Of a DNA stretch of 32,000 bases, positions 1,722 to 27,866 are shown piece by piece; the stretch's first letter is position 1; every line of letters begins with the position of its first letter. Source of the stretch: an uncultured Opitutales bacterium (GTDB taxonomy: Bacteria; Verrucomicrobiota; Verrucomicrobiia; Opitutales; UBA9783); contig CAKUSQ010000002.1 of the NCBI GenBank assembly GCA_934691225.1, positions 1 to 32,000 of the forward strand. The letters are read 5' to 3'. The translations under genes and the position numbers were made by a program. The notes under the pieces were generated by a model, which saw only the letters and a program-made list of their open reading frames with translations, was not told where the DNA came from and searched no databases.

Positions 1722-2462
1722 TCATAACCAATCAAGCTCCAAATTTAAATCATTAACGGTATCAAACTCTGTCCAATGATTGTGTATAGGGACGCCAAAT
1801 ACAGGAAAGTTTTTATCAATGAGGAATTGTAAAAAGTCTGTCGTGTACGCATTTTTATAGTTCGGATGTACAGCCTTAAATGTTTTGTACATTTGTTTAA
1901 ATTCTTTAACAAATGGTGCTGAGATTTTAAATAATCCGATATATTGCCCCTGAATATCATCGAGCGTTTTTGGTTTCTTACCAAGTTCGAAAATTTTTTG
2001 CGAGATTGGATCCCAGCGAAATGTTTCAGCATCCTTGAGTGGATCTTCCATGCGATTATTCCAATACGTATGCCATCCAATGTCTGTAATTATATTGCAA
2101 GGATGGCTAGCGTTTAATAAAGCTTCAAAAACGGAATGATGATATATGATATCACCATAACTTATGATAATATCTTTAGACTCATCCATAAGATTTTCCG
2201 CGCAAAATAAACTGTAAAGCATATTTGTTGTGGCAAAATCTTTGTTCACAACAACCGGATGATCTTTTTTAGGTAAAGCTTCATTGTGATATCCGCCAAT
2301 AAGCGTAATATCTGTTAGAGCAAATTGTTTGAAAACTTCTAACTGATACTGAAGCAACATCTTCCCTTTGTAGGGGACTATACACTTAGGTTTAGTTTCT
2401 GTGTATGGCCGCAAACGTTTGCCTTCACCCGCACAAAGCACGAATATTTTAACATCTTTCAT
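1722..2462 (-). CDS. Nucleotidyltransferase (NTP-transferase fold); candidate Cj1416-like cytidylyltransferase
   Basis: 246 aa. The N-terminal signature LCAGEGKRLRPYTETKPKC fits GxGxRLxPxTxxxPK, and the C-terminal WTEFDTVNDL is typical of this fold. Its start overlaps the stop of the upstream amidotransferase-like gene by 14 nt. Confidence 0.75.
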   Translation of the reverse strand: MKDVKIFVLCAGEGKRLRPYTETKPKCIVPYKGKMLLQYQLEVFKQFALTDITLIGGYHNEALPKKDHPVVVNKDFATTNMLYSLFCAENLMDESKDIIISYGDIIYHHSVFEALLNASHPCNIITDIGWHTYWNNRMEDPLKDAETFRWDPISQKIFELGKKPKTLDDIQGQYIGLFKISAPFVKEFKQMYKTFKAVHPNYKNAYTTDFLQFLIDKNFPVFGVPIHNHWTEFDTVNDLNLELDWL

Positions 2463-3045
2463 AAAAATCTTTTATAAAATAATTAAACCAATTTAAAAAT
2501 GGTGGACGCTCTGGATGCCACATAAACGTTACAATCGGTAAGCTTTTATGGCACATGGCTTCACAATGTCCATCATTATCGATTGCTAAAATAAAAAATT
2601 CTTCTGGTATTTTATCTAATGTAAAATTATGAAAAGAATTAACATTAAAAGTTCCGCTTGGGATTCCGTAACGATTATCTTTTATCATTACATTGTGACA
2701 AATGCCAACATGATTTTCGATACAGACTAATTTAGAACCGAAATGTTGTCCGATGAACTGCATACCATGACAAATGCCGAACAGTGGCAAGTGATGTTTT
2801 ATGCAATATTCAATACACGCAGTTTCACAAATAGTACGTGTGCTATGATCATTGCCTCCGCTTATAAGAATACCATCTAGCGCCATTACATCAATGAATT
2901 TCGAAATATTGCAGGTGTTGGGAATAGGAACTGTGATAAAATCATTTTCTGATAATAATTTTATCCAACGTTGATCCAAAACATCACGTGTTTCACCGAT
3001 CGATTCGATGTAATCTACACGCTGAGTTATGCCTATCTTTAACAT
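2449..3045 (-). CDS. Class-I glutamine amidotransferase / peptidase C26-like hydrolase; candidate Cj1417-like gamma-glutamyl hydrolase
   Basis: 198 aa with the nucleophile elbow GICHGMQF, then SFHNF and MWHPE motifs in the order typical of the C26/GATase-1 family. It starts 3 nt after the stop of the kinase gene. Confidence 0.75.
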   Translation of the reverse strand: MLKIGITQRVDYIESIGETRDVLDQRWIKLLSENDFITVPIPNTCNISKFIDVMALDGILISGGNDHSTRTICETACIEYCIKHHLPLFGICHGMQFIGQHFGSKLVCIENHVGICHNVMIKDNRYGIPSGTFNVNSFHNFTLDKIPEEFFILAIDNDGHCEAMCHKSLPIVTFMWHPERPPFLNWFNYFIKDFYERC

Positions 3046-3048
3046 AAA

Positions 3049-6030
3049 CTACCGAATGATGTCAATTTTATGTGAAGCACAGTCTAATTGGATAAAGTGA
3101 GCCACTTTTAATTTATCAAATAAAGCCTCACCTACACCTATACTTGTCGGCAATTTAAACTCAGCACTACGAATGGCCATATGCGAATTAGGCCCTCCAT
3201 AAGCTGTAATAAGACCCGCGATTTCATAATTGAATATCCAATCAAATCCCGGATCAGCATTTTTGATTAAAACGATTTTATTTCTTAATTGTATGCTGTC
3301 TGCTTGCTTTGAATTTTTAAGATAAACAATTTCAGCTTCAATCGATTGATTACCGATAAAATTGGGCAATATTTTAGGAACAAAAAATCCGTAAAAATCT
3401 TCTAACTGTGTAATTAACGGCGGCAATTCGATACATTGTATAATACGATAGTATTCTTTGCCTTGTTCAATAAGCATCGAGAATATATGTTTGATATCTC
3501 GAACTGAATATAGCCCATTGCGCATATCTTCAAAGACATTTATGGGTAAATGAGCCACATCTTCGGTAGTAAAACCGTAAGTTTTACCCATTTCTTCTAC
3601 AAGATCCAAAATTAGAGAAATGTATCTTGTAAAAACAAACTTAGAATATTCACGTCCCGCGATGGCTTGCTTCAAAAACAACTTAAAATCACTTAAAGAG
3701 ATGCCAAAAATTTGTTTGAGACATTTCTCCAAAGCATCGTAATGGGGGGGGGTAATATTTGTAGCTTTTCCTGTCGCAATAGCTTTACCACCTACATTAC
3801 AAAATAGGTATTTATCGGGATCTGAATGGTAAGTTGGCGAAGTAATATCGTACGTCCCTGGCCTTAAATGACCATACATTTTGATGCAATCTTCTTTTGA
3901 AATTTTCCCTTCAATCGCTTGCTGAGTTTTTTCAAAAATTTGGCCTGCGATGGTTTGGATGTTTTCTGTAAGTGAGCTTTTTTCAGCTTCAGAAATAACA
4001 CCTTTCGCAACAAAAGACTTCAAAAACGAGCTAGCAATAAAACCACAGCGCGCTAAATGGGAAAAATTAAGTGTGCCTATTTTGCAGGTTTGCATCAAAA
4101 CGTAAATTTTGTCCAAAGGCTTCAAATGAGTATCTGCAATGCGCGAGAATCGTTTTTCAATAACATCCATTGCTTCGTAACACTTTTGGCATTTTTTAAA
4201 GCCAGCTAGAGTTAAATCAAGTAAAGCTTTTTCGTATTGCTGATACTCATTTTCGGAAAGTTTCGCTTCATTTATCAGCAAATCATGCCAACGATCTTTA
4301 AAGTCGACCGTATAACAGGTTGGCATCAACATAAATTCCAATTTATCGTGCCACTCCGGATTGTTTTTTAATCGATGGATGTAAAAATTAACTAACTTCT
4401 TTGTTGTATCTGTTGACAAATTGTTGGGCAAAAAGGAATGTATACTGGCACGAACATCCACGTAAGGATGTCCGGCAAAATTGATAATGAGCGGATAAGG
4501 ACGTACATCTTTGTATCCAAATTCCGCACGTTGCTGCGCCCAAATATCATTCGTAATAAGCGCTTGATAAAGCGAAATAGCCAAGCGATGCGGTTTTGTA
4601 CCTACAATTTCAGCAGGATTCCAGTCAGGCATTACGCCAAAGATAGTCGTATTGCCCTGTACATCAGGTTGGGCGGTTTGATAATCGACAAAGCGTTTTG
4701 CAGTACATTCTAAGTGCTCATCCAAACGATGATCACCAATCTCTCTCAAATGTTGCGATGCAATCGGTCGAACTTGGAAAATGTACAATTCTTCATCATT
4801 CGTAACGGCAAACTCAATGTCAAGAGCATCGAATTGCGTTAAAGTTTCGATTTCTTGAATAGTTTCGAATAATTTTCTATAAAAGTTAGGTGCATCTGAC
4901 GGAAGGTCGGCATACTTCCAATGATAAAACGTTTCATCTTGTTTGCTTGCACCACTTGTAATGGCGGCCGTATCTTTTTTATCGTAATTGACAACGTAGT
5001 AAGGTGCACCATAGTTAAGTGTTCTTGTAAAAACAACACCACTCACGTTGACATTGTGTAACATGGGTTGCACCAATACTAAATCTGCATTATTGTTTGC
5101 TCCATAAGAATGGATAACTTCCGTAATAGCTTTCGCTAAAGTATCACGTTCTGGGGTAACATTCAATACGCTTTCAAATTTACCTGCATTGGCTTTTGTA
5201 AAGCTGTCTTCTTGCAATGAACTGCTTCTTACAACAAGATCTTTGTCTCCAAAAGTCCTAAGTATCGTATCAATTACGTGATCTGGATTTTTAAACCATT
5301 GTTGTGTAGAAAAATGAATCTGCTCAAGAATACATGACTTCTTAACATGCTTTCTAAGCGCGTACAGCGTTTGTGCTTTCGTCGTCAAAACAAAGCGTGC
5401 AACGTCAATGGGATTACTTACTTCCGCCCATAAATTATGTGCGTTTACAAAATCAATTTTGAAACCTTTTTGTTGTAAACAATCAATAATACCTGATAAA
5501 CGATGCTCATTGAGTTTATCACAGAAACAACCTTCCTCTTTTAAAACTTTTAGCACACTGGGTTTTAAATAAACGCAACCTATAAAGGGATATTTTCTAT
5601 TGCTTTGCTTATCCACAAAAGCTTCACAGTTTTCTTTTGTTTCTAACAGTGAAATATCTTCATCTATAGCGATTGCAGCATCATTGGTTTGTTCAGCTGT
5701 TTGCAGCATTTGTTGTATTAACTGAGATCTGAACAAAACATCTCCATAAGCAACAAATGCCGGTAAATCTTCCACAAATCCTGAATTTTGCAAAGATACA
5801 TCACAAGATGTTTTATCCCACTGAGAATTAAAAACAAAATGCAAATCAGGATATTTATGGGCAATTTTATCAAACTGGTAGCCTCCCACAAAAGTAAACC
5901 GAGAACTTTCTCCTTCGAAGGCAGAAACTTGCCAATCTAAAACGGTTTCCTGCAAATTAACTTTTATATTCGTTGGGTTTTCAACAAATTGTTTTGACTT
6001 CCCAGCACCTAATATGATTACCTGTTGCAT
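3049..6030 (-). CDS. Fusion protein: N-terminal nucleotidyltransferase-like domain plus a PEP-utilising-enzyme-type kinase (PPDK-N ATP-grasp and C-terminal swivelling-His domain, no TIM barrel); candidate Cj1418-like L-glutamine kinase
   Basis: 993 aa. Residues 1-212 (ILGAGKSK ... WAEVSNPIDVARF) look like a complete NTP-transferase domain. VVRSSSLQEDSFTKANAGKFESVLNV is a PPDK_N signature. YGGPNSHMAIRSAEFKLPTSIGVG is the phospho-histidine swivel motif, about 50 aa from the C-terminus. Confidence 0.75.
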   Translation of the reverse strand: MQQVIILGAGKSKQFVENPTNIKVNLQETVLDWQVSAFEGESSRFTFVGGYQFDKIAHKYPDLHFVFNSQWDKTSCDVSLQNSGFVEDLPAFVAYGDVLFRSQLIQQMLQTAEQTNDAAIAIDEDISLLETKENCEAFVDKQSNRKYPFIGCVYLKPSVLKVLKEEGCFCDKLNEHRLSGIIDCLQQKGFKIDFVNAHNLWAEVSNPIDVARFVLTTKAQTLYALRKHVKKSCILEQIHFSTQQWFKNPDHVIDTILRTFGDKDLVVRSSSLQEDSFTKANAGKFESVLNVTPERDTLAKAITEVIHSYGANNNADLVLVQPMLHNVNVSGVVFTRTLNYGAPYYVVNYDKKDTAAITSGASKQDETFYHWKYADLPSDAPNFYRKLFETIQEIETLTQFDALDIEFAVTNDEELYIFQVRPIASQHLREIGDHRLDEHLECTAKRFVDYQTAQPDVQGNTTIFGVMPDWNPAEIVGTKPHRLAISLYQALITNDIWAQQRAEFGYKDVRPYPLIINFAGHPYVDVRASIHSFLPNNLSTDTTKKLVNFYIHRLKNNPEWHDKLEFMLMPTCYTVDFKDRWHDLLINEAKLSENEYQQYEKALLDLTLAGFKKCQKCYEAMDVIEKRFSRIADTHLKPLDKIYVLMQTCKIGTLNFSHLARCGFIASSFLKSFVAKGVISEAEKSSLTENIQTIAGQIFEKTQQAIEGKISKEDCIKMYGHLRPGTYDITSPTYHSDPDKYLFCNVGGKAIATGKATNITPPHYDALEKCLKQIFGISLSDFKLFLKQAIAGREYSKFVFTRYISLILDLVEEMGKTYGFTTEDVAHLPINVFEDMRNGLYSVRDIKHIFSMLIEQGKEYYRIIQCIELPPLITQLEDFYGFFVPKILPNFIGNQSIEAEIVYLKNSKQADSIQLRNKIVLIKNADPGFDWIFNYEIAGLITAYGGPNSHMAIRSAEFKLPTSIGVGEALFDKLKVAHFIQLDCASHKIDIIR
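3744..3752. repeat. Homopolymeric G9 (C9 on the coding strand) inside the kinase gene
   Basis: The direct read is aatGGGGGGGGGtaat. On the coding strand it is ACC CCC CCC CAT (T-P-P-H), currently in frame. I noticed no other G/C run of 7 or more in the window. Confidence 0.95.
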
Positions 6031-7164
6031 ATGTTTGATACGATCTCAAAGTTATTTAATGAATTCAAATCTTACAAGAATTTTTTCGCTGAAAATCATA
6101 AACAACACCGTCAGCTTGTCTTTTACTCCGAACGAGCTATTTACTATCAAACCTTCAGCCCATTTTTGGAAGAGCTTTTAAAAGATTCTTCTATAACATG
6201 TAGCTACATAACATCGGATGCGAATGATCCCATATTAACTCGCCATCATGGTCGTCTTTATCCATTTTATTTTAATTTTTTCTTAAAATCCGTTTTTGAT
6301 AAAATAGATACAAAGTGTTTCGTTTTTACGATGCCAGATTTGAACATGTACCATTTGAAAAAATCAAAACATACCAAGGAATATATCTACTTGTTTCACG
6401 CCTTTTCAAGTACACATTTGCAATATAATGAAGCTGCTTTTGATGCTTACGATACCGTTTTTTGTGTAGGGCCTCATCATATTAAAGAAATTGAAGCGCG
6501 AGAAAATCTATATCACTTGTATCATAAGAAATTGCTTTCTATAGGCTATCCTCGCATGGATATTGTGTATCAAAAATATCAATCCTACAAAAAACAATTT
6601 AAAAAAACGATATTAATTGCCCCAACATGGAGCATGGCAAGCTTATTTGAAAATGGAATTCGACCACTTCTGGATGCTTTATCTCAAACCAATTACCGCG
6701 TTGTTGTCCGTCCCCATCCAGAGTTTTTGAAACGAAGAAAATCTTTGGCTAATTCTCTAAAAAACTACATTTCAACGTTACAAAATTTCATTTGGGAAGA
6801 TCAATTACTAAACGAAGATAGTTTATACGAAGCGGATCTGCTTATCACAGATCGTTCTGGAATCGCCTTTGAATATGCTTTCGGAACAGAGCGCCCGGTA
6901 TTATTCATCGATACACCTTTAAAAGAGCACAATAAAAATTGGAAAGATTTAAATATCGAACCAATAGAACTGCAACTAAGAGATAAAGTCGGTATTAGCG
7001 TTAACTTAGATTTGGATAATATTTTACCGGTTATCGAAGATTTATTGAAAAATTCCGATAATTGGCGTGAAACATTAAAATCAATGCGCAATGAGCACGT
7101 CTTCCACTGGAATTGTTCAGCCAAAAAGGGGGCGGAGTATATAAAAAAGCAATTAAAAGCTTGA
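6031..7164 (+). CDS. CDP-glycerol glycerophosphotransferase (TagB/TagF)-family transferase
   Basis: The C-terminal half reads ILIAPTW ... VVVRPHP ... ADLLITDRSGIAFEYAFGTERPVLFID, the usual TagB/F pattern. The ORF track starts at TTG 6025, but ATG 6031 is the more likely start. Confidence 0.65.
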   Translation: MFDTISKLFNEFKSYKNFFAENHKQHRQLVFYSERAIYYQTFSPFLEELLKDSSITCSYITSDANDPILTRHHGRLYPFYFNFFLKSVFDKIDTKCFVFTMPDLNMYHLKKSKHTKEYIYLFHAFSSTHLQYNEAAFDAYDTVFCVGPHHIKEIEARENLYHLYHKKLLSIGYPRMDIVYQKYQSYKKQFKKTILIAPTWSMASLFENGIRPLLDALSQTNYRVVVRPHPEFLKRRKSLANSLKNYISTLQNFIWEDQLLNEDSLYEADLLITDRSGIAFEYAFGTERPVLFIDTPLKEHNKNWKDLNIEPIELQLRDKVGISVNLDLDNILPVIEDLLKNSDNWRETLKSMRNEHVFHWNCSAKKGAEYIKKQLKA

Positions 7165-7197
7165 TTTTTTGAATTCAAACAAGATAATTTCCTTATG

Positions 7198-7287
7198 AGC
7201 CAATCAGAGCCAATCAGAGCCAATCAGAGCCAATCAGAGCCAATCAGAGCCAATCAGAGCCAATCAGAGCCAATCAGAAACTATCAG
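7198..7287 (+). repeat. Tandem decanucleotide array: (AGCCAATCAG) x8 perfect plus one degenerate copy
   Basis: Eight identical 10-bp units span 7198..7277. A ninth copy, aaactatcag, has 3 mismatches. An ATG at 7195 immediately precedes the array. Confidence 0.95.
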
Positions 7288-7340
7288 AATGCCTTTATAC
7301 AAAATGGCAACCGGTTAAAGCGATAAATTCTTTTATTAAA

Positions 7341-8063
7341 TTGTTCGCTTTAGCTGATTCTAATGCAAAAAAGCAAGCTATTTTAAATCGCTTAAAAGAT
7401 TACTTCCTTGTTAAAAAGCAATTACCTCTCCATTATAAAGTCGCAAAAATTCTCGAAGAACAAGAAAAGAATTATGATTCTTACGACTACGGAGAGAGTT
7501 ATTTTTATCAATCTTGCAAGCCACTGCATATAACTGGTTTTCGTAATACAGAAGCAAGAATTGCCGGAATGAAATTGTATGAGCATTTAAAAGGGAAAAC
7601 GGTTTTGGACATAGGAACGAATGCCGGTTTTTTACCTTTGGAAGTTGCAGATGTTTGTAAATCTATCGATGCTTTTGATATCAATCCGTATTTAATTCGA
7701 ATTGCTAAAACTTCGGCAGAATTTCTGAATATCCATAACGTAAATTTTTGGGCTGGTGTTTTTGAAGATTACAATGAAGATAAGACATACGATGTTGTTT
7801 TATCTTTCGCCAATCATTCAACTTATGATCATAACACAAAGCAATCTGTGGAGGATTATTTTAAAAAATGTCATAAGTATGTAAAAGATGGCGGTATCCT
7901 GTTGTTCGAGTCGCATCACCCAAGTTATGAGACTCCAGAGCGTTTAGAAAAAGTTTTGGAAGTACTAAAGCGTTATTTTGACGTAGAAAGAATTTGCAAA
8001 TTAACACGAGGATCTTCCGGAGATCGCGGCAGAACATTTGCGATTTGTTCAAAAAAAGCTTGA
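7341..8063 (+). CDS. Class I SAM-dependent methyltransferase
   Basis: 240 aa with motif I VLDIGTNAGFLPLEVA followed by an acidic loop (AFDINP). The annotated start is TTG and the first in-frame ATG is codon 77. The frame stays open upstream to 7188, through the repeat array. Confidence 0.7.
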   Translation: MFALADSNAKKQAILNRLKDYFLVKKQLPLHYKVAKILEEQEKNYDSYDYGESYFYQSCKPLHITGFRNTEARIAGMKLYEHLKGKTVLDIGTNAGFLPLEVADVCKSIDAFDINPYLIRIAKTSAEFLNIHNVNFWAGVFEDYNEDKTYDVVLSFANHSTYDHNTKQSVEDYFKKCHKYVKDGGILLFESHHPSYETPERLEKVLEVLKRYFDVERICKLTRGSSGDRGRTFAICSKKA

Positions 8064-8097
8064 AAAATATAAATGATTCATTTTGGATATTTATGTT

Positions 8098-8247
8098 ATG
8101 TTATGTTATATAGATCCAGGTTTAGGTGGCTTGATTGTGCAGAGCCTAATTGCGGGTTGTTTAACCGTTGTATATTTCTTTAGGAGTACCATCGCTAAGA
8201 TTTTTACACCGATTAAAAAATTGTTTTTTAAAGAAAAAAAGAGATAA
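8098..8247 (+). CDS. 49-codon ORF encoding one hydrophobic helix; possibly the detached 5' end of the next gene
   Basis: ATG 8098 gives MLCYIDPGLGGLIVQSLIAGCLTVVYFFRSTIAKIFTPIKKLFFKEKKR, with a stop at 8245..8247. It was absent from the ORF track, presumably because it is short. It ends just after an A7 run (8234..8240). Confidence 0.35.
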   Translation: MLCYIDPGLGGLIVQSLIAGCLTVVYFFRSTIAKIFTPIKKLFFKEKKR

Positions 8248-13451: not shown

Positions 13452-14375
13452 TTAATCCATCCCAGCCTCCGGATTCAGATACAACAACTGTTGCCACCGG
13501 CCTGTTTTCTTGCGGATACAGCCGGGGAGGCGGCTCATATGGGAAGGGTTTTTGCAGGCGGTATCGATGCCAAGAGGTTTTAAGCATTGCTCGAAAAATT
13601 TCTGCTCGATTTTTATTTTCCATTCATCGAGGGTATGAACATCGGGTATGCGAATCCAAGCGTGTATACTCTTATTACCGGAATCGATGAGGGCAACCAC
13701 GGGTAGTTCGTGGAGTGCCACTCCCAAAAATGCAAATTGTTCATTACGAGATAGCGTGTCAAATTTCAGTACGGCGAATTTAAATTTGCAAACGGCTTCG
13801 TCGCAACGATAAGATAGGGCCTTGGATTTTGTTGGATGCAGTTGTCCATCGACGGAATTTGGGCAAATAAACGGTAAAGACATTGGATTTTTTTTGAAAA
13901 GATCTATCCATTGACGGACTGTTCGAACTTTTGTATCATATTGAGTGCCGATAAATAAGAAATCATCAGGATCGTAAAGTGTTCGCAAGAAAAGTACCGT
14001 ATCTTTTTCTGGAGCATCAAATAATCGAACTGGGGAAGCTTCCCAGAAATCAACCTCTTCTGTTCCCTTGCCTTTTTCTAGCAGATGATCTCGATATTCT
14101 GAAGAAATTTTTGATTTGGACACAGAATTTTTAAATGGTTTTTCAAATATGCTACGGTAAGGAATGTAATCGCTCTTCGCTTTTGAAATGGCAGCATAAA
14201 TTTCACTGTCAGGAACGTAGCGGGTTCCATTGGGGATATGTTGTCGAATGTCTGCAAAGATTTGTTCCTCCGAAAGCCCTTCGCGAATTCCGCAGTTAGC
14301 GACTCCAAGAAGAGCTGTATGGCAACCCTTACCCAGAGCTGGGATTGAATAAAGTTTTTGAATATAAGTAGTCAT
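13452..14375 (-). CDS. Primase-like / replication-initiation protein of the integrative element
   Basis: 307 aa with the motif ALIDSGNKSIHAWIRIP (an SGxxSxH-type motif seen in primase-polymerase-like island proteins) and the C-terminal RLPGCIRKKTGRWQQLLYLNPE. It lies next to the Walker-A protein gene. The family assignment is from memory. Confidence 0.45.
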   Translation of the reverse strand: MTTYIQKLYSIPALGKGCHTALLGVANCGIREGLSEEQIFADIRQHIPNGTRYVPDSEIYAAISKAKSDYIPYRSIFEKPFKNSVSKSKISSEYRDHLLEKGKGTEEVDFWEASPVRLFDAPEKDTVLFLRTLYDPDDFLFIGTQYDTKVRTVRQWIDLFKKNPMSLPFICPNSVDGQLHPTKSKALSYRCDEAVCKFKFAVLKFDTLSRNEQFAFLGVALHELPVVALIDSGNKSIHAWIRIPDVHTLDEWKIKIEQKFFEQCLKPLGIDTACKNPSHMSRLPGCIRKKTGRWQQLLYLNPEAGMD

Positions 14376-14381
14376 GGTATT

Positions 14382-14499
14382 CCTTTAAAATTGTCACAAC
14401 TGTCACAAAGTGTCACATTCGATTTTGTGACAGTGCTTTGTTAGTATTCATGCAGGATAGAAAGCGTTTTTAGTTACTGTCACGATTGTCACAATAGAC
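14382..14499. repeat. TGTCAC iteron array, copy A
   Basis: TGTCAC occurs at 14392, 14401, 14411, 14478 and 14487, and inverted (GTGACA) at 14427. Spacing within clusters is 9-10 bp. The array overlaps the last codons of the DUF3987-like gene (..YCDNRDSN*). Confidence 0.85.
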
Positions 14500-15771
14500 A
14501 TACTTATTGTCTAAACGTAACCAAGGATCTTGTTCTACAAGTTGTACGAAAGGATCCTTGTCTATATGAAGTTTGCGATAAGCTTCGCGAATGGGAACTT
14601 TACCGTTATTTTCCAGTAAAAGAGCATAAAATTTGTCTAACAGTTTGTCCTGATTTTTGTTATAAACCTTATCTATAAAGTTCATTTGTTGTTGAGCAAA
14701 AAACGTTTTTTGAATTTTAATCGCTTTTTGAAATGTATCTGCAGATAACGGTTCTTCGGCAGGGAACTCATACATATGTAAGCTTCCTGCTATACGTATA
14801 GCCATTTCGGCCCAACGTTTCATAAAGATTGCGATACTTTCATTCGATCTTAATCTTTGCTGAATGGAATTGTAATAATAACGATAGAGCGGATAAACAT
14901 CCTCATCAGCGCTAATAATTACCGGTTTTCTTTTCAAATCTTCCTTCAGCAGATCTTCCCAACGTTTATGCACCTTTTTTTCAAGATCTGCGTTCAGCAG
15001 AATAGGTATTTCTGGCAACAATCGAGGTTCCATTTGACCGTAGACGCATAAAAATCTTGCTAACAAACCGCTGTCTTTTAGCGATTTATGCCTAAATAAG
15101 TACATAGCTTTGTCAGGTTGTACAGCAACAGTGATGTTAATAAGAGGATGGTTTAGATTGATATTTTGTCCGTTGTTGCGTCTAATGAAACAATGATCTC
15201 CCGAAAACCCTTTCAGAAGCAAAGCTTCGTCCGTTACCCTGTCTTTGTAACATCCTGCGATAACATCAATAACTTTTCGTGCATCTGAAGAAAAATAACA
15301 TGACCTCTCGTCATTTTCCGCTAAAACATTTGCAAGGCACTTCGAGGTAATATCTTCTACAAAGAGTTGAGAATGCTTTGATGGGCTTGACCCTGACGAA
15401 ACTGATGATGAACGTAACTCGCTATTTTTGTCATAAAATGGCTTTAATACCTGTTCAAAAATATTTGTTTTCCCGAAACAGCTTGGTGCAATAAATAATC
15501 CATAGAGATTGATTGGTGTCACTAAGTTCGAATCAACCTTTACAGAAGTTTTTCTGAAGCAAGATGCAGCGGTTGCAAACAGCATCAAGGGTGCGGAGAA
15601 GTCTATCGGAATTTGTTCAGCACGTTGCAATTCCAGTACGTAAGCTTGCAAGTCTTTAGGTAAACAATCTAGCGGGAAAGTACTATGTATATCTTCTTCC
15701 ATTTGTAAATAACCGCTTTTTCTTGCACCTTCCATAAATTTTTCTGCTAATTCAGACACTAACTCAGACAT
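14470..15771 (-). CDS. DUF3987-like Walker-A (P-loop) protein, putative island helicase/replication protein
   Basis: The Walker A motif is IAPSCFGKTN. ATG 15771 (MSELVSE...) is preceded by GGGAGG 5 nt upstream on the coding strand, so it is preferred over the track start at 15804. Confidence 0.55.
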   Translation of the reverse strand: MSELVSELAEKFMEGARKSGYLQMEEDIHSTFPLDCLPKDLQAYVLELQRAEQIPIDFSAPLMLFATAASCFRKTSVKVDSNLVTPINLYGLFIAPSCFGKTNIFEQVLKPFYDKNSELRSSSVSSGSSPSKHSQLFVEDITSKCLANVLAENDERSCYFSSDARKVIDVIAGCYKDRVTDEALLLKGFSGDHCFIRRNNGQNINLNHPLINITVAVQPDKAMYLFRHKSLKDSGLLARFLCVYGQMEPRLLPEIPILLNADLEKKVHKRWEDLLKEDLKRKPVIISADEDVYPLYRYYYNSIQQRLRSNESIAIFMKRWAEMAIRIAGSLHMYEFPAEEPLSADTFQKAIKIQKTFFAQQQMNFIDKVYNKNQDKLLDKFYALLLENNGKVPIREAYRKLHIDKDPFVQLVEQDPWLRLDNKYVYCDNRDSN

Positions 15772-16003
15772 GATAACCTCCCTTCTTATGTAAATTGCAG
15801 TCATTTTGAGTATCCTCTATCGCTTGAGCAATGAATTCATTCAAATCTTCCTGCCGAAATTTCCGCAGACGTCCTAGCTTAACCGACTTCAACGGGTAAC
15901 GTTTCGTCGATAACCAAACCGCTATCGTGTTCGGTTTTACGCCTAGGTAGTCCGCGGCTTCTTGTATTGATAATAATTTTTTAGTGTTTTTATCCATATA
16001 CAC
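15764..16003 (-). CDS. Excisionase / AlpA-type helix-turn-helix DNA-binding protein
   Basis: 79 aa. LSIQEAADYLGVKPNTIAVWLSTKRYPLKSVKLG matches the HTH_17/Xis pattern. It sits between the integrase side and the replication genes. Confidence 0.7.
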   Translation of the reverse strand: MYMDKNTKKLLSIQEAADYLGVKPNTIAVWLSTKRYPLKSVKLGRLRKFRQEDLNEFIAQAIEDTQNDCNLHKKGGYHV

Positions 16004-16031
16004 AATTAAACCACAGAATGAACAAACATTA

Positions 16032-16072
16032 CTAACGGACAGAAATTAAAAAAAATATTTCCTGTCCGTTAG
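16032..16072. promoter_or_regulatory. Perfect 11-bp inverted repeat upstream of xis (operator or terminator candidate)
   Basis: ctaacggacag (16032..16042), 19 A/T-rich nt, then ctgtccgttag (16062..16072). It lies between the stop of the 321-codon gene and the xis start. Confidence 0.45.
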
Positions 16073-16133
16073 TTATCTTTTAGCCTAAAACTAACGTGTT
16101 TTAAGGCGTTAAATCTCAAATTTAAAAACTAAA

Positions 16134-17099
16134 TTATTTTTGTCGCAGTTCTTTGGTCAAATACCAAAGCCCGATCTTTTCTAGAAATTTTTCTTTCTGC
16201 AGAAGTGCCTGGCTCATATTCGATCTAATACTGGCACAAGCGTAATTAGTATTATAGAAAGCATTTACAATTTCTGCAATCCAAGCCCAGTGCACATTTT
16301 CTGAAAAACGTTTGTATAGATTAAAAGAAAATAATTGCATTTCTGATCTTGTATACTCGCATGAATTATTTAAAAACTCGTTATATTCCTTTATATTTGG
16401 GCTATTAGCATTGAACACTATACGATCATTTTGAGCATCTTCATATAATTTATCGATATAAACATAAAAGCTTTTCAAATACAGATCTGAATTGGATTGT
16501 AATAATTGTTCCCAATCATCAAGATTTTTAGGGAAATCCATAACGTTCTCATTTAATTTATAGACGCACTCAATAATTGTTTGCTTTGCTTTTTTTATTT
16601 TTTTGATACAAGGTTTTACGACGTGTTTTGAACATATTTGTTTTTCTTGAATTCTTGAAAACAACATCGTTATATTTTCTTTAAGTTTTATAATTTCGCA
16701 AATATCATTTACGTCTTTAGCTTTTAAGAATTCCTTTAAATACCCTGTTAACTTTAGCTTTGTAATGATATTTAGACCTTTTTTGTAATGTTCTACTGTA
16801 TTTCGATCTGATTCTTTGACATCCGATAACGTATACAATTCCGTATGTTTTGAAATATCATTCTGTAAAGAATCTAAATTGTTAATTCTTTCATTAAAAC
16901 GAGCGATAAGCCATTTTCGTAAAACATTTCCAATTTCTTGCCTTATAACAATCGTTTCACGATCTTTATCTCCAGCTACGCTTTTGTCGAAATCCTTGAT
17001 GAGATTATCATAAAATACATCAAGTTCCTTACGTTTTTCGACCAGTATATTTTTTAACATTTCTGTAGTATGATTATATGTATTTGTTTTGTCGTTCAT
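16134..17099 (-). CDS. Hypothetical protein; I recognise no motif
   Basis: A long uninterrupted 321-codon ORF lying 11 nt after the integrase stop on the same strand. Only a short antisense ORF competes with it. Confidence 0.55.
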   Translation of the reverse strand: MNDKTNTYNHTTEMLKNILVEKRKELDVFYDNLIKDFDKSVAGDKDRETIVIRQEIGNVLRKWLIARFNERINNLDSLQNDISKHTELYTLSDVKESDRNTVEHYKKGLNIITKLKLTGYLKEFLKAKDVNDICEIIKLKENITMLFSRIQEKQICSKHVVKPCIKKIKKAKQTIIECVYKLNENVMDFPKNLDDWEQLLQSNSDLYLKSFYVYIDKLYEDAQNDRIVFNANSPNIKEYNEFLNNSCEYTRSEMQLFSFNLYKRFSENVHWAWIAEIVNAFYNTNYACASIRSNMSQALLQKEKFLEKIGLWYLTKELRQK

Positions 17100-17110
17100 A
17101 ATTATTTATC

Positions 17111-18229
17111 CTAAAAATTTTTATGCATTAAATTGATGGCCCCTTGGCTGGCTTGGCGGATAGTTTCGACTTGTAAGCGGGCGTAAACTTCGGTGGCATC
17201 ACTGCTGTGGTGTCCCAGGGCTTTACCGACAATATGCAAGCTGGTATTATTCATTGTCATATAAGAACCGAGAGTACGACGAAGATCATGAATACGCAGG
17301 TCTTGAAGATTCGCCTTCTTCAATAACCGTTGCCAAGCTTTCTTGGGATCCATAAAATGCCCGGAAGCGCTGGTAGCACTCGGGAATACCCACGGCGAAG
17401 AGTTGTTGTCCGCTTCTTTTAATGATTTTAGAACTTTTATGGCTTCATCGGTAAGCGGTATTGTTTGAGGTTCTCCGCTTTTTGTTAGAGGTATCCGCCA
17501 GAATTTCAATTGCCAATCGATCTGATCCCAACGCATTGCAAGGACATTCGAACGTCGCGCACCGGTATATAACAACAAGAGAAAGAATGCACGAATATGC
17601 GGATCTGGTTCTGCTTCAACAGCTGCAAAGAATGATTGGAATTCGTGCGGCAAAATGAATCGTTCGCGTTTTGTCTCCTTGAACATTTTAATGCCAATGG
17701 CCGGATTTTCCCCATTCCAGCCCCATTCGATGGCTTTGTTGTACATCGCTTTTAATCGCTCCAGCATTCGATTCGCAACATAAATTCCGCGTTCAGCACG
17801 CAATTGGTTGTGGTACAAACTAACATCGTATTTAGAGATAGCGGATAATTTGCGATTGAACCAATGGTGATAGTATTTATTGATGGTCCGCTCATCTTCC
17901 TTCCAAGAGCGTTTCTGCGGTTTGGAGTAGCGTTCCATGAACATTTTAAAAAGTTCACCGAGCGTTAATTCCGCTTTCAATTGCTTTTTTTTAACCTCAG
18001 GATCTTCGCCTTTGGCCATTTGGACTTTGTACGTTTGAGCCACTTCGCGAGCGTTTGTGACGGTCAATTCCGGGAAACGTCCTATCTTTATCCTTCGCGT
18101 ACGGCCTTGAATTTTCGTAAGCAGATAAAACGTTTTCACACCGTTCGCCGTTACCAACAAAACCAATCCCCGCTCTTTAGTGTCATAGTAACTATCGAAC
18201 GCGGATTTGCTTCCGTTGGTTTTAGGCAA
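17111..18229 (-). CDS. int: Tyrosine recombinase / phage-type integrase (P4-like, tRNA-targeting type)
   Basis: 372 aa. Catalytic residues appear in the expected contexts: TGARRSNVLAMRW, HDLRRTLGSY and LGHHSSDATEVYARL. The N-terminal arm-binding-like region is FYLLTKIQGRTRRIKIGRFPELTVTNAREVA. Confidence 0.95.
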   Translation of the reverse strand: MPKTNGSKSAFDSYYDTKERGLVLLVTANGVKTFYLLTKIQGRTRRIKIGRFPELTVTNAREVAQTYKVQMAKGEDPEVKKKQLKAELTLGELFKMFMERYSKPQKRSWKEDERTINKYYHHWFNRKLSAISKYDVSLYHNQLRAERGIYVANRMLERLKAMYNKAIEWGWNGENPAIGIKMFKETKRERFILPHEFQSFFAAVEAEPDPHIRAFFLLLLYTGARRSNVLAMRWDQIDWQLKFWRIPLTKSGEPQTIPLTDEAIKVLKSLKEADNNSSPWVFPSATSASGHFMDPKKAWQRLLKKANLQDLRIHDLRRTLGSYMTMNNTSLHIVGKALGHHSSDATEVYARLQVETIRQASQGAINLMHKNF

Positions 18230-21620: not shown

Positions 21621-21697
<77 letters not shown>

Positions 21698-26786: not shown

Positions 26787-27866
26787 TTAAACCCGAGAAA
26801 TATTTTTGAGCGTGTTGTGCGTATTTTCTTGCTCTTTTTGTTCTCGGACCCAGCGAATAACCTTGGCCACAGGTTCAATGAGTTCGCGCGGTATGTAACG
26901 TCCCTCGTCAGCTAAATCGTACAGCGCATGCGCGAGAGGGACATTTTCCATAACAGGAATTTCAAATTCATAGGCAATTTTTTTCATCAATTGTGCTTGA
27001 TAATCAATACCTTTGGCAAGAACAATGGGTAAGGGGGTAACCAATTCATTATAGTAGATAGCGATGGCATAATGTGTTGGGTTTACAATTAAAGCAGAAG
27101 CACGTTTAGTTTTTTGCGCAGGACTTCCTTGCAATAATTCACGATGCAGCTGTTTACGTTTTCCTTTGATCGTTGGATCACCTTCCATCTCTTTAAATTC
27201 GCGCTTAACTTCATCTTTTGTCATCATAAGTTGTTTTTTATGATTGTAACGTTGAAAAATGAAATCTAGAAAAGCCACTACAACGTAGGCAAAAACGACA
27301 TTCATTGCAAATGTTTTTAGAATAGTTGGTAAAATATTGATAAAATCTTTCAAACTTGTGAAAGGGATTTTTAGAAGAGGATCAAGCGTATTTCGAATAA
27401 CAAAGTAGAGTAGGGTACTTAAAAATAGAATTTTTGCAGCTGATTTTAAAAATTCAACTAAATTTTTTAATGAAAATATTTGTTTAACCTTGGAGATAGG
27501 ATTGAGTTTGCTGAAATTAGGTTTGATAGATTCGAAGGATAATAGTAATCCAAACTGAAAAACATTAGCTATAACGCCGGTTAAAAATACCAATAAAACA
27601 AGGGGTAGAATTACTTTAACACCAATGGCTAAACAGGCTAATCCCATTTGGTTGCAGGCGGCAATAAAAGGTTCCTTGAAGAAATTGTTTGGAACTACAA
27701 TGAGATCAATCAAGGTTTTAAGAATGTACTCACGTCGCATACCGAAGTACGCAAAAATAACGATTAATAGCGCAGTTGAAGTAACATCTTTGCTATTAGC
27801 AACTTGCCCTTTCTTACGTGCATCACGGAGTTTTTTTGCGGTTGGTTGTTCTGTTTTTTCACTCAT
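26787..27866 (-). CDS. sctU: Type III secretion export-apparatus switch protein (SctU / YscU / FlhB family)
   Basis: 359 aa. It starts MSEKTEQPTAKKLRDARKKGQVANSKD, has four TM segments and carries the NPTH autocleavage motif (LIVNPTHYAIAIYY). Its start overlaps the sctT stop by 4 nt. Confidence 0.85.
   Translation of the reverse strand: MSEKTEQPTAKKLRDARKKGQVANSKDVTSTALLIVIFAYFGMRREYILKTLIDLIVVPNNFFKEPFIAACNQMGLACLAIGVKVILPLVLLVFLTGVIANVFQFGLLLSFESIKPNFSKLNPISKVKQIFSLKNLVEFLKSAAKILFLSTLLYFVIRNTLDPLLKIPFTSLKDFINILPTILKTFAMNVVFAYVVVAFLDFIFQRYNHKKQLMMTKDEVKREFKEMEGDPTIKGKRKQLHRELLQGSPAQKTKRASALIVNPTHYAIAIYYNELVTPLPIVLAKGIDYQAQLMKKIAYEFEIPVMENVPLAHALYDLADEGRYIPRELIEPVAKVIRWVREQKEQENTHNTLKNISRV

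What the first reader, a model, noticed from the sequence alone, without database searches (positions are those of the whole stretch)
7195..7340. Eight perfect 10-bp repeats directly after an ATG, out of frame with the downstream methyltransferase by exactly one repeat unit
**Seen.**
- ATG 7195 is followed at once by (AGCCAATCAG)x8 at 7198..7277, plus a degenerate ninth copy.
- From ATG 7195 the frame runs 43 codons and stops at TAA 7324..7326.
- The methyltransferase frame (7341..8063) is open upstream to 7188, straight through the array.
- That frame has no ATG before codon 77 of the annotated ORF, only TTG at 7341.
- The unit length is 10, which is 1 mod 3. Gaining one unit or losing two would therefore put ATG 7195 in frame and give a full-length protein with an SQSEPIRANQ-type repeat leader.

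**Established.** Short tandem repeats in the 5' coding region are a classical contingency-locus mechanism. An example is the CAAT repeats in Haemophilus lic1A, which control phosphocholine decoration.

**Inference.** Methylation of the decoration is phase-variable and currently OFF, or reduced to TTG-initiated expression.
Basis: partly seen in the sequence, partly recalled or inferred. Interest (0 to 1): 0.7.

Follow-up and report, generated by a model that had tools for sequence, protein, structure and literature searches.

The report
Ten-base repeat switch on a methyltransferase
A run of eight perfect 10-base repeats right after the start codon acts as a length-dependent on/off switch for a sugar-decoration methyltransferase in an uncultured human-gut Verrucomicrobia bacterium; this copy is OFF, while otherwise identical strains from other people carry 3, 6 or 9 repeats and are ON.

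Summary
ATG 7195 is followed by (AGCCAATCAG)x8 at 7198..7277 and a 7/10 ninth unit. That frame stops at TAA 7324. The methyltransferase frame is open from 7188 but has no start codon before TTG 7341.

Contigs identical to the window over 6.9 kb (0 mismatches) differ only in the array. Alleles with 9, 6 or 3 units give full-length proteins of 292, 282 and 272 aa from ATG 7195. Alleles with 8 or 7 units, or 2 units without the degenerate unit, are frameshifted.

Homologues are 265-274 aa, and their conserved N-terminus is encoded at 7278..7340, upstream of TTG 7341. The organism is an uncultured Opitutales bacterium.

Sister lineages carry a repeat at the same spot:
- ATG+(AGCAACCCAG)x3, or x2 in a contig with 0 mismatches over 6.7 kb;
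- ATG+(AGCAAGCAAG)x3;
- ATG+(AG)10-14.

One lineage has a G7/G8 tract inside the gene instead.

The gene belongs to a five-gene cassette resembling Campylobacter O-methyl-phosphoramidate biosynthesis. The cassette's kinase gene carries a second switch, G9/G8/G7 at 3744..3752.

This is a new member of a known kind, the simple-repeat contingency locus. Switching within a population and the chemistry remain untested.

The parts
7195..7197 (+). ATG, the real start codon of the methyltransferase. It is out of frame with the gene body in this 8-unit allele.
   Evidence: Full-length proteins P0092, P0094 and P0097 start here in the 9-, 6- and 3-unit alleles. Homologues in L020 and L021 also have ATG directly followed by a 10-mer array.
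7198..7277 (+). (AGCCAATCAG)x8, a perfect decanucleotide repeat array. This is the switch.
   Evidence: TRF reports 100% matches and score 164. Copy number is 2, 3, 6, 7, 8 or 9 in other contigs. The 3-, 6-, 8- and 9-unit contigs have flanks identical to the window; the 7-unit (L008) and 2-unit (L010-L015) contigs are from about 98-99% identical strains.
7278..7287 (+). Degenerate ninth unit AAACTATCAG (7/10). It is the first part of the conserved coding sequence (K-L-S in the methyltransferase frame).
   Evidence: It is deleted together with array units in the L010-L015 allele.
7278..7340 (+). Conserved N-terminal coding segment (KLSECLYTKWQPVKAINSFIK) in the methyltransferase frame. It is unreachable from ATG 7195 with 8 units.
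   Evidence: It aligns with the N-termini of 265-274 aa homologues, consensus YxKxxPxKAxxxFxK. In the AlphaFold model residues 31-55 have pLDDT above 90 and are helical.
7324..7326 (+). TAA that ends the 43-aa out-of-frame peptide made from ATG 7195 in the 8-unit allele.
   Evidence: The same 43-aa product is called on 4 public contigs.
7341..8063 (+). Remainder of the class I SAM-dependent methyltransferase ORF. TTG 7341 is the first in-frame start and would give a truncated 240-aa product.
   Evidence: Pfam Methyltransf_31/25/23/11. TTG is residue 52 of the open frame, inside predicted helix 42-55.
6031..7164 (+). Glyphos_transf-family (TagF-like, CDP-alcohol phosphotransferase type) gene, 30 bp upstream. 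It is the probable transferase of the phospho-substituent and is probably co-transcribed with the methyltransferase.
   Evidence: PF04464, E=2e-13. It lies next to the methyltransferase in most related loci across phyla.
3049..6030 (-). 993-aa ATP-grasp/PEP-utilizer enzyme of the PRK05849 family (Cj1418-like L-glutamine kinase type).
   Evidence: NF004508 scores 882 bits against a cut-off of 501. Pfam gives PPDK_N plus PEP-utilizers.
3744..3752 (-). Second repeat switch: a G9 tract (C9 on the coding strand) at about codon 759 of the kinase-like gene. G9 gives the intact gene.
   Evidence: G9 occurs in the window, L001 and L002 (993 aa). G8 occurs in L059 and L060 (split 778+208 aa). G7 occurs in L057 and L058 (split 700/672+147 aa). 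The 30-bp flanks are identical. About 0.012 such runs are expected in the window.
2449..3045 (-). Class I glutamine-amidotransferase-like hydrolase (Cj1417-like gamma-glutamyl-CDP-amidate hydrolase type).
   Evidence: NF045546, E=2.5e-36 and 125.6 bits, below the curated cut-off of 250.
1722..2462 (-). Nucleotidyltransferase (Cj1416-like role).
   Evidence: PF12804 NTP_transf_3, E=3.7e-12. It co-occurs with the cassette in other phyla.

Best explanation
The array is a simple-sequence contingency locus that gives translational phase variation.

**Mechanism.** The methyltransferase starts at ATG 7195, and the 10-base units begin with the second codon. Ten is not a multiple of three. Gain or loss of a unit by slipped-strand mispairing during replication therefore moves the start codon among three frames. 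Unit numbers divisible by 3 are ON. They give a full-length enzyme with 1-3 copies of a disordered SQSEPIRANQ leader. All other numbers are OFF. They give a 37- or 43-aa peptide, and the enzyme body lacks its start. The window has 8 units and is OFF; one gain or two losses would turn it ON.

**Context.** The enzyme is the methyltransferase of a five-gene cassette: nucleotidyltransferase, amidotransferase-like hydrolase, glutamine-kinase-like enzyme, TagF-like transferase and methyltransferase. This resembles the Campylobacter O-methyl-phosphoramidate pathway. The switch most likely decides whether a phospho(ramidate) substituent on a surface glycan is methylated. A second switch, the G9 tract in the kinase-like gene, decides whether the substituent is made at all.

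**Shown.** The anatomy; length polymorphism on identical backgrounds; the ON/OFF reading-frame consequences; repeats at the same site in sister lineages.

**Inferred.** High-rate reversible switching within a population; loss of activity in OFF; the chemical nature of the decoration; the selective agent (phage or host immunity).
For: 1. The array and the frames are as described.
2. Homologues are 265-274 aa. Their conserved N-terminus maps to 7278..7340, upstream of TTG 7341.
3. Exact ON proteins exist in public assemblies for 9 units (4 contigs), 6 units (3 contigs) and 3 units (3+3 contigs). OFF forms exist for 8 units (4 contigs), 7 units (1 contig) and 2 units (6 contigs).
4. L003 (9 units) and L004 (6 units) match the window over 6.9 kb with 0 mismatches and a single gap at the array. 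L005 and L006 (3 units) have 0 mismatches in 2 kb on each side.
5. Independent replicate in another species with another unit: L021 and L050 show 0 mismatches over 6,730 bp and one 10-bp gap. They carry 3 versus 2 units of AGCAACCCAG, giving a 274-aa ON and a 239-aa OFF product.
6. Other lineages carry a repeat at the same position. L020 has ATG+(AGCAAGCAAG)x3. L019 and L049 have ATG+(AG)10 and (AG)14, and their protein cluster has lengths of 212-307 aa. The P0015 lineage has G7 versus G8 inside the gene (224 versus 262 aa). In those 12-kb loci this is essentially the only repeat.
7. In the AlphaFold model the repeat leader (residues 1-28) is disordered, with pLDDT below 50. Residues 31-55 are confident helices and TTG 7341 lies inside one.
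8. The cassette is linked to the methyltransferase in about 20 of 31 loci across phyla.
9. The second switch, G9/G8/G7, is in the kinase-like gene.
10. Precedent: cj1420, a putative methyltransferase of O-methyl-phosphoramidate synthesis, is phase-variable through poly-G in C. jejuni (PMC8437040, PMC6097035).
Against: - No read-level data were available. Heterogeneity within one population, the switching rate and reversibility are not shown. The polymorphism is between samples.
- N-gaps inside the array in L002 and L009 are ambiguous.
- A TTG-7341 product lacking about 21 conserved residues might retain activity. All invariant residues lie downstream of it.
- Only alleles of 2-9 units were found. 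Predicted alleles with 0, 5 and 10-16 units are absent from the collection.
- Orthology to Cj1419/Cj1420 was not tested. No Cj1415-type kinase was found in the window.
- Contig counts are not independent samples, so the ON:OFF ratio of about 13:11 says little about selection.
Confidence: 0.85

Rival explanations
1. The array is a neutral, unstable minisatellite in a dispensable N-terminal leader. OFF alleles are simply loss-of-function or decaying variants of a non-essential gene, not a selected reversible switch.
For: The leader is predicted to be disordered. Some lineages have no array at all: L022, L023, P0001, P0002. L049 looks like a decayed gene. No within-population data are available.
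Against: Units are 100% identical within each array but differ at 2-4 of 10 positions between species, which indicates continuing turnover. Three different repeat types sit on the same gene in sister lineages. OFF and ON alleles occur on identical backgrounds, and the OFF gene bodies show no other damage. A second repeat lies in the same cassette.
Confidence: 0.08
2. The enzyme is made constitutively from TTG 7341 or another internal start. The array then only changes whether an extra leader is attached, or tunes the expression level rather than switching it.
For: TTG 7341 is in frame. All invariant residues of the family lie downstream of it. Some database homologues are called from about this point, for example P0006, P0010 and P0021.
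Against: Residues 31-51 are conserved among relatives. They are predicted with pLDDT above 90 as helices that TTG 7341 would cut. No purine-rich ribosome-binding sequence precedes TTG 7341. Full-length ON forms always start at ATG 7195. In the other lineages the OFF calls start at different, non-homologous internal codons.
Confidence: 0.07
3. The length differences are assembly or sequencing artefacts of a short tandem repeat.
For: Two scaffolds have N-gaps inside the array.
Against: Arrays of 30-90 bp are shorter than the k-mers or reads used (k141 contigs). Each allele recurs on several independent contigs from different samples and assemblers. Differences are always whole units.
Confidence: 0.01

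Closest known systems
[quoted passage not shown]
   Same: A putative methyltransferase of a phosphoramidate-type glycan decoration is switched by a repeat frameshift (PMC6097035, PMC8437040). Several genes of the same pathway carry repeats; here these are the methyltransferase array and the G9 tract in the kinase-like gene. The cassette shares Cj1418-, Cj1417- and Cj1416-like enzymes.
   Different: The repeat here is a 10-base unit placed directly after the start codon, not a homopolymer inside the gene. The phylum differs (Verrucomicrobiota, uncultured gut Opitutales). No Cj1415-type kinase was found. The transferase is a TagF-like protein. Orthology of the methyltransferases was not tested.
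Haemophilus influenzae lic1A (CAAT)n
   Same: Tandem repeats lie at the very 5' end of the coding region just after the ATG. They shift the frame and control a phospho-substituent on a surface glycan. Repeat number varies between strains.
   Different: The unit there is 4 bases, here 10. The switched enzyme there is a kinase and here a methyltransferase. lic1A has alternative ATGs in two frames that give graded expression, whereas only one ATG precedes the array here.
Neisseria opa genes (CTCTT)n
   Same: A multi-base unit that is not divisible by 3 lies in the leader-coding part of the gene. This gives a three-state frame switch, and the repeat-encoded peptide is tolerated in the ON protein (established knowledge).
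   Different: The unit there is a pentamer in a signal peptide of an outer-membrane adhesin. Here it is a decamer in the disordered leader of a cytoplasmic enzyme.

Membership tests
Simple-sequence-repeat contingency locus (translational phase variation) | Perfect tandem repeat, with unit length not a multiple of 3, inside the coding region | tested here: met
   10-base unit x8, 100% identical, beginning at codon 2.
Simple-sequence-repeat contingency locus (translational phase variation) | Unit number differs between very close relatives while the flanks are unchanged | tested here: met
   3, 6, 8 and 9 units occur on flanks with 0 mismatches over 4-6.9 kb. A second species shows 2 versus 3 units with 0 mismatches in 6.7 kb.
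Simple-sequence-repeat contingency locus (translational phase variation) | Length changes toggle between a full-length and a truncated product | tested here: met
   3, 6 and 9 units give 272, 282 and 292 aa from ATG 7195. 7 and 8 units give 37- and 43-aa peptides, with the gene body starting only at TTG.
Simple-sequence-repeat contingency locus (translational phase variation) | High-frequency, reversible switching within a clonal population | not testable with these tools
   Only assembled contigs were available, not reads or cultures.
Simple-sequence-repeat contingency locus (translational phase variation) | A phenotype follows the switch | not testable with these tools
   The organism is uncultured and no glycan data exist.
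O-methyl-phosphoramidate (Cj1415-Cj1422 type) biosynthesis cassette | Cj1418-type L-glutamine kinase (ATP-grasp plus phosphohistidine domain) | tested here: met
   NF004508/PRK05849 scores 882 bits (cut-off 501). Pfam gives PPDK_N plus PEP-utilizers. That PRK05849 is the Cj1418 family rests on my own knowledge.
O-methyl-phosphoramidate (Cj1415-Cj1422 type) biosynthesis cassette | Cj1417-type gamma-glutamyl-CDP-amidate hydrolase | tested here: inconclusive
   NF045546 is the best match, E=2.5e-36, but at 125.6 bits it is below the curated cut-off of 250.
O-methyl-phosphoramidate (Cj1415-Cj1422 type) biosynthesis cassette | Cj1416-type cytidylyltransferase | tested here: inconclusive
   Only generic NTP_transf_3 / NTP_transferase matches.
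O-methyl-phosphoramidate (Cj1415-Cj1422 type) biosynthesis cassette | Cj1415-type (APS-kinase-like) cytidine diphosphoramidate kinase | tested here: not met
   None of the ORFs scanned between 476 and 12856 has such a domain. It could lie elsewhere in the genome.
O-methyl-phosphoramidate (Cj1415-Cj1422 type) biosynthesis cassette | Methyltransferase orthologous to Cj1419/Cj1420 | not testable with these tools
   No Campylobacter sequence was available. No Campylobacter name appears among the 120 best of 293 profile hits. PDB gives only generic class I methyltransferases.
O-methyl-phosphoramidate (Cj1415-Cj1422 type) biosynthesis cassette | Methyltransferase genetically linked to the phosphoramidate genes | tested here: met
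   The kinase-like, hydrolase, nucleotidyltransferase and TagF-like genes lie within 6 kb of the methyltransferase homologue in about 20 of 31 loci from many phyla.

The most novel reading that the evidence does not exclude
Host-associated Opitutales/Puniceicoccales (Verrucomicrobiota) from human gut and from other animal-associated samples, including yak rumen, run a Campylobacter-like, multi-switch repeat system on a phosphoramidate-type surface decoration. A decanucleotide array after the start codon would be kept mutable by concerted evolution across species that share only 52-61% protein identity. In sister lineages it would be replaced by (AG)n or poly-G. This would be the first repeat-based contingency system described in commensal Verrucomicrobiota. 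It would also be evidence that O-methyl-phosphoramidate-type chemistry and its phase variation extend far beyond Campylobacter.
Probability: 0.55. Interest if true: 0.65.

Novelty: new member of a known kind. Interest (0 to 1): 0.55.

Why it matters
[quoted passage not shown] This locus is a clear repeat switch in an uncultured gut commensal of a phylum with no such record; a search for Opitutales plus phase-variable found 0 papers. ON and OFF alleles are documented directly in different human gut metagenomes.

The switch sits on a cassette resembling the O-methyl-phosphoramidate pathway. A 2019 review describes those modified sugars as so far identified only in Campylobacter (PMC6429109). The same gene has acquired three different repeat types in sister lineages. 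That is good evidence that variable methylation of this decoration is under recurrent selection, for example by phages or host antibodies. The 10-base unit is also unusually long for a frame-shifting switch. Unit counts can be read from ordinary metagenomes, so the ON/OFF state can be tracked in cohorts.

Tried and rejected
- **JGI metagenome scan.** Searching for TTTCCTTATGAGCCAATCAG gave 0 hits, so no further alleles came from that collection.
- **Predicted alleles.** Exact look-ups of alleles with 0, 5 and 10-16 units found none.
- **Solved structures.** The PDB sequence search and the Foldseek search gave only generic class I methyltransferases and no solved Cj14xx relatives.
- **Link to Campylobacter Cj1419/Cj1420.** A profile search with 20 homologues listed no Campylobacter name among its best 120 hits. 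The link is untested, not refuted.
- **TTATG x3 at 8091..8105.** I considered this as another switch and rejected it. The last ATG stays in frame with the 47-aa ORF whatever the copy number, and only a 3-versus-2 difference is seen, between diverged strains.
- **Promoter scan.** It found fewer sites than shuffles do. The GATAAT box before ATG 7195 is only a lead.
- **Assembly artefact.** Rejected, because each allele recurs in independent assemblies and the differences are whole units.
- **Programmed ribosomal frameshifting.** Considered, but no evidence for it was sought or found.

Full report
**1. The observation**

- ATG 7195..7197 is followed at once by eight perfect copies of AGCCAATCAG at 7198..7277. 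A ninth unit, AAACTATCAG, matches 7 of 10 positions.
- Tandem Repeats Finder reports period 10, 8.2 copies, 100% matches and score 164. This is by far the strongest array in the window.
- The 10-mer with up to one mismatch occurs 10 times in 32 kb, against a mean of 1.64 in shuffles. None of 100 shuffles reaches 10, and eight of the ten copies are this tandem run.
- From ATG 7195 the frame gives a 43-aa peptide and stops at TAA 7324..7326.
- The methyltransferase frame is open from 7188 through the whole array. Its first ATG, GTG or TTG is TTG 7341. The next Met is residue 77 of that 240-aa ORF.
- The distance from ATG 7195 to 7341 is 146 bases, which is 2 mod 3. Unit numbers divisible by three would therefore join the ATG to the gene.

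**2. Where the gene really starts**

Homologues of the methyltransferase are typically 262-274 aa, not 240. Their N-termini align with the window's frame upstream of TTG 7341. The segment KLSECLYTKWQPVKAINSFIK, encoded at 7278..7340, matches a family consensus YxKxxPxKAxxxFxK.

An AlphaFold model of the 291-residue open frame has mean pLDDT 86.9. It puts the repeat-encoded residues 1-28 below pLDDT 50, which means disordered. Residues 31-55 are confident helices with pLDDT above 90. TTG 7341 is residue 52, inside helix 42-55. The real start is therefore upstream of the TTG, and the only start codon there is ATG 7195.

**3. Direct evidence that the array length varies and toggles the gene**

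The 90%-identity protein cluster that holds the window's 240-aa product also holds three longer proteins. Each equals the window's frame read from ATG 7195.

| Protein | Length | SQSEPIRANQ leader copies | Units | Contigs |
|---|---|---|---|---|
| P0092 | 292 aa | 3 | 9 | 4 |
| P0094 | 282 aa | 2 | 6 | 3 |
| P0097 | 272 aa | 1 | 3 | 3 |

A diverged strain also has 3 units (P0098, 3 contigs).

Array lengths read from the fetched DNA:

| Units | Loci | State |
|---|---|---|
| 9 | L003 | ON |
| 6 | L004 | ON |
| 3 | L005-L007, L016-L018 | ON |
| 8 | window, L001 | OFF |
| 7 | L008 | OFF |
| 2, with the degenerate unit lost | L010-L015 | OFF |
| unresolved (scaffold gaps of N inside the array) | L002, L009 | unknown |

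Every full-length call has a unit number divisible by 3, and every truncated call does not.

The backgrounds are identical. L003 and L004 match the window over 6.9 kb with 0 mismatches and one gap, at the array. L001 and L003-L006 have 2,000 bp upstream and 2,000 bp downstream at 100.000% identity. The array therefore changes far faster than the surrounding DNA.

Predicted alleles with 0, 5 and 10-16 units are not in the collection. The 7-unit peptide is present once.

The tally of resolved contigs is about 13 ON and 11 OFF. These are not independent samples, so I draw no conclusion about selection from the ratio.

**4. The organism and its relatives**

The window's species is an uncultured Opitutales bacterium (Verrucomicrobiota) from Hadza gut metagenomes. 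L024 is 100% identical, and L001 is an 842-kb contig that matches the window over 18 kb.

Sister lineages carry a repeat at the same place.
- **L021** (Opitutales, yak rumen): ATG followed at once by (AGCAACCCAG)x3.
- **L020** (Puniceicoccales): ATG followed by (AGCAAGCAAG)x3.
- **L019 and L049**: ATG followed by (AG)10 and (AG)14.
- **L022 and L023**: no repeat.

In the yak-rumen species the experiment of nature is repeated. L050 and L021 are identical over 6,730 bp except for one 10-bp gap. L050 has 2 units and a 239-aa OFF product; L021 has 3 units and a 274-aa ON product.

The (AG)n lineage has proteins of 212-307 aa that differ in the number of Glu-Arg pairs. A further lineage has a G7 tract (frameshifted, 224 aa) or a G8 tract (262 aa) inside the gene.

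Units are identical within each array but differ at 2-4 of 10 positions between species. This is the signature of continuing expansion and contraction. In these 12-kb loci the site after the ATG is essentially the only repeat.

**5. What the gene does**

The protein is a class I SAM-dependent methyltransferase. Its neighbours are:
- a TagF-like Glyphos_transf gene, 30 bp upstream;
- a 993-aa PRK05849-family enzyme with PPDK_N and PEP-utilizer domains (882 bits), transcribed divergently;
- a glutamine-amidotransferase-like protein whose best family is gamma-glutamyl-CDP-amidate hydrolase (E=2.5e-36, below the curated cut-off);
- a nucleotidyltransferase.

This is the enzyme set of the Campylobacter O-methyl-phosphoramidate pathway, Cj1418, Cj1417 and Cj1416. 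No Cj1415-type kinase was found.

The five genes travel together in about 20 of 31 loci from Acidobacteria, Planctomycetota, Pseudomonadota, candidate-phylum Taylorbacteria and others. The methyltransferase is therefore a dedicated part of this cassette.

I infer that the TagF-like enzyme transfers the phospho(ramidate) group from a CDP-linked donor to a surface glycan, and that the methyltransferase then methylates it. This chemistry is inferred, not shown. Orthology to Cj1419/Cj1420 could not be tested.

**6. A second switch in the same cassette**

The only other notable repeat in the window is a G9 tract at 3744..3752. About 0.012 such runs are expected by chance. It lies at about codon 759 of the kinase-like gene. 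Thirty bases on each side are identical in all the loci below.

| Tract | Loci | Kinase-like gene |
|---|---|---|
| G9 | window, L001, L002 | intact, 993 aa |
| G8 | L059, L060 | split, 778+208 aa |
| G7 | L057, L058 | split, 700/672+147 aa |

The window is thus predicted to make the substituent (kinase ON) but not to methylate it (methyltransferase OFF).

**7. Mechanism and rivals**

The best explanation is slipped-strand gain and loss of 10-base units that moves ATG 7195 among three frames, a classical contingency locus. I give this 0.85.

Three rivals remain.
- **Neutral unstable minisatellite, with OFF alleles as mere decay (0.08).** Against it: recurrent repeat types on this gene, intact OFF gene bodies, and the second switch.
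- **Constitutive initiation at TTG 7341 (0.07).** Against it: the conserved, structured segment upstream of the TTG. It is not excluded.
- **Assembly artefact (0.01).** Against it: whole-unit differences that recur in independent assemblies.

What is missing is read-level evidence of heterogeneity within one population, and any phenotype.

**8. Comparison with what is known, and novelty**

The closest functional parallel is C. jejuni cj1420. It is a putative methyltransferase of O-methyl-phosphoramidate synthesis that is phase-variable through a G9 tract, alongside cj1421 and cj1422 (PMC8437040, PMC6097035).

The closest anatomical parallels are H. influenzae lic1A (CAAT)n and Neisseria opa (CTCTT)n, where repeats lie in the 5' coding leader. 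This locus differs in three ways: the 10-base unit, the position at codon 2, and the phylum.

Literature searches gave the following.
- No paper pairs Opitutales with phase-variable.
- A 2019 review describes O-methyl-phosphoramidate sugars as so far identified only in Campylobacter (PMC6429109).

The mechanism is known, so I rate this a new member of a known kind, with moderate to good interest (0.55).

Noticed in passing
window 3744-3752 (minus-strand gene 3049-6030): A G9 tract inside the 993-aa glutamine-kinase-like gene varies in length among strains. G9 gives the intact gene; G8 and G7 split it. It is a second repeat switch in the same cassette.
   Followed up: yes
window 6028-6033: The start codons of the divergent kinase-like gene and the TagF-like gene abut as CAT|ATG, with no intergenic DNA. 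Each promoter must therefore lie inside the other gene, or the mRNAs are leaderless.
   Followed up: no
window 7161-7188; L020 and L022 upstream of the ATG: A -10-like GATAAT ends 6 bases before ATG 7195. GATAAT or GATAAC also lies just upstream of the ATG in two Puniceicoccales loci. This could mean a leaderless transcript that would require the ATG. The promoter scan as a whole was not above chance.
   Followed up: partly
window 8091-8105: (TTATG)x3 at the start of a 47-aa membrane-like ORF, with x2 in L008 and L009. The last ATG stays in frame, so it is not a frame switch.
   Followed up: yes
window 13452-18229 and 21621-21697: A tyrosine integrase (17111-18229), DUF3987 and HTH_17 genes, and a tRNA-Met lie close to the cassette. 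This looks like an integrated mobile element.
   Followed up: no
window 26787-27866 (minus strand): A type III secretion export-switch gene scores above the cut-off of the non-flagellar SctU model (420 bits against 358) and below the FlhB cut-off. This suggests an injectisome-type system in a gut Opitutales bacterium.
   Followed up: no
L025-L047 (genome loci from many phyla): The five-gene phosphoramidate-type cassette with this methyltransferase is widespread in environmental genomes: Acidobacteria, Planctomycetota, Pseudomonadota, Taylorbacteria and Vulcanimicrobiota. A 2019 review describes the O-methyl-phosphoramidate sugars as so far identified only in Campylobacter.
   Followed up: partly
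L002 6144-6243; L009 about 2830-2930: Scaffold gaps of 100 N lie exactly inside the 10-mer array in two assemblies. The arrays there may be longer than the assembler's k-mer, or heterogeneous in the sample.
   Followed up: no
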